A stretch of DNA of 64,000 nt from Escherichia coli (GTDB taxonomy: Bacteria; Pseudomonadota; Gammaproteobacteria; Enterobacterales; Enterobacteriaceae): NCBI RefSeq assembly GCF_003334785.1, contig NZ_QOWV01000002.1, one strand, 5' to 3'. Made by a program: the position numbers. This document shows, piece after piece, positions 48,135 to 49,708 of this stretch. Positions within the stretch are counted from its first letter, which is position 1. Each line of letters starts with the position of its first letter.

Positions 48135-49708
48135 CTATTAAATGGCTGATCGGACTTGTTCGGCGTACAAGTGTACGCTATTGTGCATTCGAAACTTACT
48201 CTATGTGCGACTTACAGAGGTATTGAATGAAACGTGCAGTGATTACTGGCCTGGGCATTGTTTCCAGCATCGGTAATAACCAGCAGGAAGTCCTGGCATC
48301 TCTGCGTGAAGGACGTTCAGGGATCACTTTCTCTCAGGAGCTGAAGGATTCCGGCATGCGTAGCCACGTCTGGGGCAACGTAAAACTGGATACCACTGGC
48401 CTCATTGACCGCAAAGTTGTGCGTTTTATGAGCGACGCATCCATTTATGCATTCCTTTCTATGGAGCAGGCAATCGCTGATGCGGGCCTCTCTCCGGAAG
48501 CTTACCAGAATAACCCGCGCGTTGGCCTGATTGCAGGTTCCGGCGGCGGCTCCCCGCGTTTCCAGGTGTTCGGCGCTGACGCAATGCGCGGCCCGCGCGG
48601 CCTGAAAGCGGTTGGCCCGTATGTGGTCACCAAAGCGATGGCATCCGGCGTTTCTGCCTGCCTCGCCACCCCGTTTAAAATTCATGGCGTTAACTACTCC
48701 ATCAGCTCCGCGTGTGCGACTTCCGCACACTGTATCGGTAACGCAGTAGAGCAGATCCAACTGGGCAAACAGGACATCGTGTTTGCTGGCGGCGGCGAAG
48801 AGCTGTGCTGGGAAATGGCTTGCGAATTCGACGCAATGGGTGCGCTGTCTACTAAATACAACGACACCCCGGAAAAAGCCTCCCGTACTTACGACGCTCA
48901 CCGTGACGGTTTCGTTATCGCTGGCGGCGGCGGTATGGTAGTGGTTGAAGAGCTGGAACACGCGCTGGCGCGTGGTGCTCACATCTATGCTGAAATCGTT
49001 GGCTACGGCGCAACCTCTGATGGTGCAGACATGGTTGCTCCGTCTGGCGAAGGCGCAGTACGCTGCATGAAGATGGCGATGCATGGCGTTGATACCCCAA
49101 TCGATTACCTGAACTCCCACGGTACTTCGACTCCGGTTGGCGACGTGAAAGAGCTGGCAGCTATCCGTGAAGTGTTCGGCGATAAGAGCCCGGCGATTTC
49201 TGCAACCAAAGCCATGACCGGTCACTCTCTGGGCGCTGCTGGCGTACAGGAAGCTATCTACTCTCTGCTGATGCTGGAACACGGCTTTATCGCCCCGAGC
49301 ATCAACATTGAAGAGCTGGACGAGCAGGCTGCGGGTCTGAACATCGTGACCGAAACGACCGATCGCGAACTGACCACCGTTATGTCTAACAGCTTCGGCT
49401 TCGGCGGCACCAACGCCACGCTGGTAATGCGCAAGCTGAAAGATTAATTCGCAGTAGGTCGGAGTAGACGCGCCAGCGTCGCATCCGACGTTACGCGCCA
49501 ATGCGGCCTCCGGCACTAACGCAAAAGGGAACCTGATGGTTCCCTTTTTCACATCATTGACAATCGCCGCCAGTTCCAGGCAAACTTCCCGCTTTGTCGA
49601 TTTCCTTCTGAAAAGACGTACGCGTTAAATCCTGCCAACGCACCGTAACCCTGAAACCAGAGAGATGAGACGGGGATACTCCTCGCCTTGCGCTGCATTC
49701 TGGAGTAA

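What the first reader, a model, noticed from the sequence alone, without database searches (positions are those of the whole stretch)
48144..48178. Tandem FadR-like and FabR-like operator sequences upstream of fabB
A FadR-type box (CTGATCGGACTTGTTC) is followed immediately by a perfect 16-bp palindrome (gcgtacaagtgtacgc), about 50 bp upstream of the fabB start. This is consistent with dual control of unsaturated fatty acid synthesis by FadR and FabR.
Basis: partly seen in the sequence, partly recalled or inferred. Interest (0 to 1): 0.2.

Follow-up and report, generated by a model that had tools for sequence, protein, structure and literature searches.

The report
Known FadR/FabR operators of fabB

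Summary
The window is E. coli K-12 DNA, 100% identical to BW25113. The finding lies in the 158-bp mnmC/fabB intergenic region. Both sequences are present: the FadR box CTGATCGGACTTGTTC at 48146-48161 and GCGTACAAGTGTACGC at 48163-48178, which ends 48 nt before the fabB ATG. One correction: the palindrome is not perfect. It has 7-nt perfect arms around a non-symmetric AG centre (14 of 16 positions).

The stretch matches published reagents. The 56-nt EMSA probe 'fabB-F', which wild-type FadR shifts, covers window 48134-48189, and the published FabR palindrome GGCGTACAAGTGTACGCT is 48162-48179. With the RACE-mapped start at ATG-37, the FadR box spans -44..-29 and overlaps the -35. The FabR site spans -28..-11, filling the spacer and touching the -10.

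Neither motif is statistically remarkable alone; context and conservation are decisive. fabA carries the same 36-nt module in otherwise unrelated sequence. A pattern fixing only the FadR box and the left arm hit 120 genome loci. At least 116 lie directly upstream of fabA or fabB, and the unconstrained right arm is nearly invariant (1.93 of 2 bits). The spacing of the two sites did not vary in any hit.

Verdict: interpretation supported, already known, low interest.

The parts
48144..48161 (+). FadR (GntR-family) operator: 17-mer GGCTGATCGGACTTGTT plus C. It lies at about -46..-29 from the transcription start and overlaps the -35.
   Evidence: Exact sequence located. Contained in the published FadR-shifted probe. 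Leave-one-out PWM rank 6 of 127,968. The 16-nt box is identical to the one in fabA.
48162..48179 (+). FabR (TetR-family) operator: 18-mer imperfect palindrome GGCGTACAAGTGTACGCT, with arms GCGTACA/TGTACGC at 48163-48169 and 48172-48178. It lies at -28..-11.
   Evidence: Marked as the FabR palindrome in PMC4537474 Table 2. Fits the Salmonella ChIP-derived core ACAnnTGTnnnnT. The unconstrained right arm carries 1.93 of 2 bits in 49 distinct fabB promoters.
48156..48161 (+). Inferred -35 hexamer TTGTTC (3 of 6 matches to the consensus), inside the FadR box.
   Evidence: Best -35/-10 pairing compatible with the mapped start: 17-nt spacer, 7 of 12 matches. Too weak for the consensus scanner, which found nothing. 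Inferred, not mapped here.
48179..48184 (+). Inferred -10 hexamer TATTGT (4 of 6). Its first base is the last base of the FabR 18-mer.
   Evidence: The pattern TAnnGT is conserved across fabB promoters.
48190..48190 (+). fabB transcription start (+/-1 nt).
   Evidence: [quoted passage not shown] Converted to window coordinates.
48115..48129 (+). Published CpxR box GTAAGgctgcGCAAA (-112..-98 from the ATG). The DNase I footprint at -119..-94 is window 48108-48133.
   Evidence: PMC7083825 text and Table 1. Sequence verified at these coordinates.
48216..48220 (+). Shine-Dalgarno AGAGG, 6 nt before the ATG.
   Evidence: Read directly from the sequence.
48227..49447 (+). fabB coding sequence (beta-ketoacyl-ACP synthase I, 406 aa), the regulated gene.
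46062..48068 (-). mnmC, the divergent neighbour. Its annotated start is at 48068, which makes the intergenic region 48069-48226.
   Evidence: NCBIfam hit and RefSeq annotation in BW25113.

Best explanation
Window 48144-48179 is the composite operator of the E. coli fabB core promoter.

A FadR dimer (GntR family) binds the 17-mer that overlaps the weak -35 hexamer, at about -45..-29. From there it activates transcription about two-fold. Long-chain acyl-CoA made from imported fatty acids releases FadR from the DNA, and the activation is lost.

A FabR dimer (TetR family) binds the abutting 18-bp imperfect palindrome. This site fills the 17-nt spacer and touches the -10 (-28..-11). From there FabR represses, presumably by excluding RNA polymerase. 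Its occupancy is reported to respond to the balance of unsaturated and saturated acyl thioesters.

Together the two sites tune KAS I, and so unsaturated fatty-acid output, to fatty-acid supply and membrane composition.

What is shown (here or in held papers): the sequence identity with published reagents, the promoter geometry, FadR binding and activation, FabR dependence in vivo, and the conservation. What is inferred: the -35 and -10 assignments and the RNA-polymerase occlusion mechanism. The ligand logic of FabR comes from primary papers that are not held here and is recalled from memory (Zhang 2002, Zhu 2009, Feng & Cronan 2011).
For: - Identity: the window is 100% identical to BW25113, and the region is present in 5426 of 5426 complete E. 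coli genomes.
- Published reagents: the FadR-shifted probe and the marked FabR palindrome coincide with the finding.
- Expression: fabB expression falls 2- to 2.5-fold in a fadR mutant. fabB is up-regulated in fabR deletion mutants, and FabR ChIP gives signal at the fabB promoter in Salmonella. [quoted passage not shown]
- Geometry: a start at ATG-37 places the FadR box on the -35 and the FabR site in the spacer.
- Paralogous promoter: fabA shares a 36-nt island, with 16 of 16 identities in the FadR box, inside otherwise unrelated sequence.
- Genome scan: 120 of 120 hits in species-representative genomes lie on the coding strand, and at least 116 are 66-102 nt upstream of a fabA or fabB start. 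The right arm was not fixed by the pattern, yet it carries 1.93 bits (fabB) and 1.68 bits (fabA) per column, against about 0.5 bits in the flanks.
- Within E. coli: polymorphisms fall just outside the operators.
Against: Nothing found here contradicts it. The weaknesses are these:

- The FadR box departs from the consensus (CTGATC in place of CTGGTC), and its matrix score alone is no better than a few hits inside ORFs.
- The palindrome alone occurs at chance frequency.
- The consensus promoter scan found no promoter, so the hexamers are assigned from the published start site.
- The primary footprinting and EMSA papers for FabR and FadR at fabB could not be read here.
- Held papers call the boxes 'putative' or 'predicted' in their probe tables.
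- The role of FabR's ligand is debated in the literature.
Confidence: 0.95

Rival explanations
1. Chance resemblance: the two motifs look like FadR and FabR sites but have no regulatory function.
For: Perfect 7+2+7 inverted repeats occur at chance frequency in the window (5 observed, 4.1 +/- 2.1 expected). The FadR matrix score is matched by several hits inside ORFs.
Against: The stretch is identical to a published probe that FadR shifts. The same 36-nt module sits upstream of fabA. All 240 pattern hits in genomes and metagenomes sit upstream of fabA or fabB wherever the downstream sequence could be read, and the right arm, which the genome pattern did not fix, is nearly invariant there.
Confidence: 0.01
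2. The operators mainly control the divergent gene mnmC, whose start lies 76-111 nt away on the other strand, rather than fabB. A weaker version is that they control it as well.
For: The intergenic region is only 158 bp and serves both genes. No mnmC promoter was mapped here.
Against: At fabA the same module lies behind the co-directional gene ycbZ, with no divergent partner. The module always points at fabA or fabB, at a fixed 66-102 nt from the start codon. It sits exactly on the fabB -35, spacer and -10. An additional minor effect on mnmC is not excluded.
Confidence: 0.03
3. The functional unit is the other, overlapping inverted repeat ACTTGTTCG/CGTACAAGT (48154-48162 and 48164-48172), or a DNA/RNA hairpin, rather than two separate protein sites.
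For: the repeat finder reports this 9-nt, 89% complementary pair, which bridges the FadR box and the FabR left arm.
Against: It depends on the central AAGT of the fabB palindrome. That centre varies among fabB promoters (AACT, ATCT, AGGT) and reads ACGT in fabA. The region is upstream of the start site, so it is not transcribed from the fabB promoter. A 7-bp stem with a 2-nt loop cannot form a hairpin.
Confidence: 0.01

Closest known systems
E. coli fabA promoter FadR/FabR composite operator
   Same: It has the same 16-nt FadR box CTGATCGGACTTGTTC, followed after one base by GCGTACA-NN-TGT..GCTAT. The spacing, the orientation and a similar distance to the start codon are shared. The same two regulators act on it.
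   Different: The fabA right arm is degenerate (TGTTAGC against TGTACGC), so its palindrome is weaker. fabA has several promoters (S1, S2 and the acid-induced S3). It lies behind ycbZ rather than in a divergent intergenic region. FabR is reported to bind fabB better than fabA.
FadR repressor operators of the fad regulon (fadL, fadD, fadBA, fadI), three of which are in this same window
   Same: The same 17-bp motif family, CTGGTCNGA-type, bound by the same protein. The window's two fadL sites and the fadI site rank 1st to 3rd with the same matrix.
   Different: In fad genes the sites overlap or follow the promoter core or start site and repress. In fabB the site sits at about -40 and activates. 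The fabB and fabA boxes carry CTGATC rather than CTGGTC.
FabR box of yqfA/trhA, and the Salmonella FabR regulon motif ACAnnTGTnnnnT
   Same: The fabB site fits the core motif exactly: ACA-AG-TGT-ACGC-T. A 3-nt mutation in the trhA box abolishes FabR control.
   Different: No adjacent FadR box is described for trhA in the papers read here. That site is not in this window.
DesT/fabAB control in Pseudomonas aeruginosa (from general knowledge and the abstract of PMC3462791)
   Same: A TetR-family repressor that senses acyl thioesters controls the unsaturated fatty-acid genes through a palindrome in the promoter.
   Different: [quoted passage not shown] Not tested here.

Membership tests
FadR (GntR-family) operator | A 17-bp site matching the FadR motif (CTGGTCNGA-type core) derived from proven sites | tested here: met
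   A matrix built from five published fad sites, with fabA and fabB excluded, scores 10.45 and ranks the box 6th of 127,968 positions. With fabA added it ranks 3rd. It differs from the loose consensus CTGGTCNGANNTGTT at one position. The site is non-consensus (G to A at core position 4).
FadR (GntR-family) operator | FadR protein binds the DNA in vitro | not testable with these tools
   Published: wild-type FadR shifts the 56-nt probe that equals window 48134-48189, and the W60G mutant does not (PMC4259882). Shewanella FadR also binds it (PMC4537474).
FadR (GntR-family) operator | Position compatible with activation (at or just upstream of the -35), and in vivo dependence on fadR | tested here: met
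   Geometry computed from the published start: -44..-29. fabB-lacZ is down 2- to 2.5-fold in the fadR mutant according to PMC4259882. The review PMC9329746 says that FadR as an activator binds upstream of the -35.
FabR (TetR-family) operator | An 18-bp imperfect palindrome of the form GCGTACA-NN-TGTACGC with the core ACAnnTGTnnnnT | tested here: met
   Perfect 7-nt arms with a 2-nt centre. Identical to the published FabR palindrome of the fabB probe. Fits the Salmonella core motif.
FabR (TetR-family) operator | [quoted passage not shown] | tested here: met
   -28..-11. The same layout is found in fabA and in every one of the 240 genome and metagenome hits. No hit with a 3-12 nt gap exists in the metagenome collection.
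FabR (TetR-family) operator | FabR binds the site and represses fabB | not testable with these tools
   Published: ChIP-chip and ChIP-qPCR show FabR at the fabB promoter, with derepression in a Salmonella fabR deletion mutant (PMC4804515). fabB-gfp is up in an E. coli fabR deletion strain (PMC9017321). The primary E. coli EMSA papers are not held.
FabR (TetR-family) operator | Evolutionary conservation of both half-sites, as expected for a dimer site | tested here: met
   The right arm was left free in the search pattern. It still carries 1.93 bits per column in fabB promoters and 1.68 in fabA promoters, against about 0.5 bits in the flanks.

The most novel reading that the evidence does not exclude
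The two operators may form one obligate, rigid module rather than two independent sites.

In every hit of two sampled sets (120 genome loci and 120 metagenome loci, from Enterobacterales, Vibrio and Shewanella) the FadR core and the FabR half-site are separated by exactly the same 2-nt linker. No case with a 3-12 nt linker exists in the whole metagenome collection. That could mean FadR and FabR must touch or sterically sense each other on the DNA, through direct protein-protein interplay, and are not merely neighbours.

The plainer explanation is that both sites are pinned independently by the -35 / 17-nt spacer / -10 geometry.

Separately, a third copy of the module sits in front of an HxlR-type regulator and a KAS-II-like gene in Acerihabitans (L022). 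This hints at unrecognised members of the regulon outside E. coli.
Probability: 0.1. Interest if true: 0.3.

Novelty: already known. Interest (0 to 1): 0.05.

Why it matters
It matters only as confirmation. This promoter is the textbook case of control by two opposing regulators (an activator released by its ligand, plus a repressor) over bacterial unsaturated fatty-acid synthesis and membrane fluidity. The first-stage reader recognised it correctly from raw sequence.

The new material here is small. It consists of a quantified phylogenetic footprint showing that the unconstrained half-site is nearly invariant, and a test showing that the spacing between the FadR and FabR sites never varies in the data sampled. 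Neither result changes current understanding.

Tried and rejected
- **Consensus promoter scan.** It found nothing in 47950-48350, because the -35 matches only 3 of 6 positions. I assigned the hexamers from the published start instead.
- **Primary papers.** None of these is held: McCue 2001 (PMC30389), Campbell & Cronan 2001 (DOI and PMC99677), Feng & Cronan 2011 (DOI and PMC4072462), Zhu 2009 (PMC2787350) and Feng & Cronan 2009 (PMC2785586). I relied on later open papers that reprint the probes and the layout.
- **Motif statistics alone.** The exact and 3-mismatch searches, the matrix ranking and the palindrome counts do not by themselves separate the site from chance. I did not use them as the main argument.
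- **Overlapping inverted repeat.** ACTTGTTCG/CGTACAAGT is rejected as the functional unit because its pairing is not conserved.
- **Hairpin or terminator.** Rejected: the region is upstream of the start site and a 2-nt loop cannot form.
- **Control of mnmC as the primary role.** Rejected because of the fabA context.
- **Variable-spacing variants.** None were found.

Full report
**What is there**

The window around the finding reads ...AAATGGCTGATCGGACTTGTTCGGCGTACAAGTGTACGCTATTGTGCATTCG....

- CTGATCGGACTTGTTC occupies 48146-48161.
- GCGTACAAGTGTACGC occupies 48163-48178.
- A single G (48162) lies between them.
- The second motif ends 48 nt before an ATG at 48227.

The ORF at 48227-49447 is beta-ketoacyl-ACP synthase I (FabB). 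It scores 804.9 bits on the NCBIfam equivalog NF005935, whose cut-off is 630. The divergent ORF is mnmC.

The 401 bp around the site are 100% identical to E. coli K-12 BW25113 and are present in all 5,426 complete E. coli genomes. RefSeq annotation puts the mnmC start at window 48068, which makes the intergenic region 48069-48226, or 158 bp.

The 16-mer is not a perfect palindrome. It has 7-nt perfect arms, GCGTACA and TGTACGC, around a non-symmetric AG centre, so 14 of 16 positions are self-complementary.

**Is it more than chance?**

Each motif taken alone is not.

- Perfect 7+2+7 inverted repeats occur five times in the window, against 4.1 +/- 2.1 in Markov resamples.
- I built a position weight matrix from five published FadR sites of fad genes, deliberately leaving out fabA and fabB. 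It ranks the fabB box 6th of 127,968 positions with a score of 10.45.
- The top three hits are the two fadL sites, which were in the training set, and an untrained site 27 nt upstream of fadI. All three are in this same window.
- The other hits that score about the same (9341, 7455, 37588, 38294) lie inside long ORFs.

So the box is a real but non-consensus member of the motif family (CTGATC in place of CTGGTC). The case for function has to rest on context and conservation.

**Context**

[quoted passage not shown] That is window 48190.

| Element | Window | Position from start |
|---|---|---|
| FadR box | 48146-48161 | -44..-29 |
| Inferred -35, TTGTTC | 48156-48161 | -34..-29 |
| FabR 18-mer | 48162-48179 | -28..-11 |
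| Inferred -10, TATTGT | 48179-48184 | -11..-6 |

The FadR box contains the only plausible -35. The 18-mer GGCGTACAAGTGTACGCT fills the 17-nt spacer exactly and contributes the first base of the -10. The -35 is weak (3 of 6), which explains why the consensus scanner found no promoter. A weak -35 also suits a promoter that needs an activator.

**Agreement with published reagents**

PMC4259882 lists the EMSA probe fabB-F, TCTATTAAATGGCTGATCGGACTTGTTCGGCGTACAAGTGTACGCTATTGTGCATTC. It is identical to window 48134-48189.

- Wild-type FadR shifts this probe and the W60G mutant does not.
- fabB-lacZ expression falls 2- to 2.5-fold in the fadR mutant.
- PMC4537474 reprints the probe and marks GGCGTACAAGTGTACGCT as the FabR palindrome, directly after the FadR box.
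- PMC7083825 underlines FadR and FabR boxes in its figure of the fabB promoter.
- FabR occupies the fabB promoter in vivo in Salmonella by ChIP, and fabB is derepressed in fabR deletion mutants.
- The site fits the Salmonella core motif ACAnnTGTnnnnT.

**Paralogous and orthologous promoters**

I fetched the fabA promoter from an E. coli genome and aligned it with the fabB promoter. The two unlinked regions share only a 36-nt island: CTGATCGGACTTGTTC, then A or G, then GCGTACA-NG-TGT-NN-GCTAT. The sequence around it is unrelated.

I then scanned one genome per species (298 Gb) with TGATCGGANTTGTTNNGCNTACA. This pattern fixes the FadR box and the left arm only.

- Every hit lies on the coding strand upstream of a FabA (66) or FabB (54) homologue.
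- For 116 of them the start codon is 66-102 nt downstream of the match.
- Enterobacterales usually have both promoters.
- Shewanella, Parashewanella and Vibrio hits are all upstream of fabA. This agrees with PMC4537474, which says that in Shewanella only fabA has a FadR site.

The right arm, which the pattern left free, carries 1.93 of 2 bits per column in 49 distinct fabB promoters and 1.68 bits in 63 fabA promoters. The flanks carry about 0.5 bits. The centre dinucleotide varies.

Within E. coli, the most divergent copy and the common Nissle-type allele differ just outside the operators, at 48142 and 48117, and never inside them.

**Spacing**

My genome pattern fixed the spacing between the sites, so I tested spacing separately in the metagenome collection.

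- A 3-12 nt linker between the FadR core and the FabR motif gave no hits at all.
All 120 have the canonical 2 nt.
- Of these, 112 are visibly upstream of fabA or fabB, 7 are cut by contig ends, and 1 has a FabB match that is interrupted.

The module is therefore rigid. The simplest reason is that each site is pinned separately by the promoter's -35, spacer and -10 geometry. Direct FadR-FabR interplay is possible but is not needed to explain the result.

**Mechanism**

FadR is a GntR-family dimer. It binds over the weak -35 and activates transcription about two-fold. Long-chain acyl-CoA releases it from the DNA. This is shown in the literature.

FabR is a TetR-family dimer. It binds the spacer palindrome and represses. 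The in vivo dependence is shown. That it works by excluding RNA polymerase is my inference from the -28..-11 position. Its modulation by unsaturated and saturated acyl thioesters I recall from Zhu 2009 and Feng & Cronan 2011, which I could not read here.

CpxR adds acid-stress activation from a footprinted box at 48108-48133.

**Rivals**

- Chance resemblance is excluded by the conservation and the published binding.
- Control of mnmC as the primary role is unlikely. The same module serves fabA, which has no divergent partner, and the module is always placed relative to fabA or fabB. A side effect on mnmC is not excluded.
- The overlapping inverted repeat ACTTGTTCG/CGTACAAGT is not conserved.
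- A hairpin is structurally impossible, and the region is not transcribed from this promoter.

**Verdict**

The feature is already known and is a textbook case. Interest is low (0.05). My confidence in the explanation is 0.95.

Noticed in passing
window 28612-28628 and 28636-28652 (- strand): The two published FadR operators of fadL (CACTGGTCTGATTTCTA and AGCTGGTCCGACCTATA) lie in this same window, upstream of the 448-aa ORF at 27186-28532 (-). They score 1st and 2nd with the FadR matrix, although they were part of its training set.
   Followed up: partly
window 29320-29336 (both strands): A strong FadR-type site, AAGTGGTCTGACCTGAT, lies 27 nt upstream of the 436-aa ORF at 29363-30673 (+), which is followed by a 714-aa ORF. 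By position in K-12 these should be fadI and fadJ, but I did not test their identity. The site was not in the training set yet ranks 3rd of 127,968. It is presumably the known FadR operator of fadIJ.
   Followed up: partly
window 48115-48129 (footprint 48108-48133): This is the published CpxR box GTAAGgctgcGCAAA of the fabB promoter. Its first half-site is polymorphic within E. coli: A to C at 48117, giving GTCAG, in Nissle 1917 and strain Ec-U18. The second half together with the following bases, GCAAATTTC (48125-48133), is moderately conserved across Enterobacterales fabB promoters, at about 1 bit per column against about 0.3 bits nearby.
   Followed up: partly
window 48142: A common E. coli polymorphism, A to T (AAATGG becomes AATTGG), sits two bases upstream of the FadR 17-mer. 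About 43% of complete genomes carry one difference somewhere in the 57-mer; I located it in Nissle 1917 only. The operators themselves were unchanged in every copy I examined.
   Followed up: partly
window 48211-48219, and L003 about 470-480: The fabA and fabB 5' leaders share CTTACAGAG immediately upstream of, and overlapping, the Shine-Dalgarno sequence. The rest of the two leaders is unrelated. This could be chance or a shared translational or sRNA element.
   Followed up: no
window 48154-48172: A second inverted repeat, ACTTGTTCG/CGTACAAGT (9 nt, 89% complementary), bridges the 3' half of the FadR box and the FabR left arm. It is not conserved in fabA or in many fabB orthologues, so it is probably incidental.
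   Followed up: yes
L022 (Acerihabitans arboris NZ_WUBS01000007.1) 4790-4830, - strand: A third full copy of the composite operator, CTGATCGGACTTGTTCAGCGTACACTTGTACGCTAAAGT, sits upstream of a 190-aa ORF (4186-4758) that looks by eye like an HxlR-type regulator; I did not test that. A 423-aa KAS-II-like gene follows (2918-4189, 33% identical to FabB). This may be an unrecognised FadR/FabR regulon member in that genus.
   Followed up: partly
L004-L123 (genome-contig hits): All Shewanella, Parashewanella and Vibrio hits for the composite operator are upstream of fabA, while most Enterobacterales have it upstream of both genes. The fabA right arm is systematically degenerate (TGTTAGC or TGTTCGC), whereas the fabB right arm is mostly the symmetric TGTACGC.
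   Followed up: partly
L057 (Xenorhabdus ehlersii) and one metagenome locus: In these two loci the FabA or FabB match downstream of the operator begins well inside the protein (residue 67 and residue 186). This suggests a frameshift, an assembly gap or an insertion between the operator and the gene.
   Followed up: no
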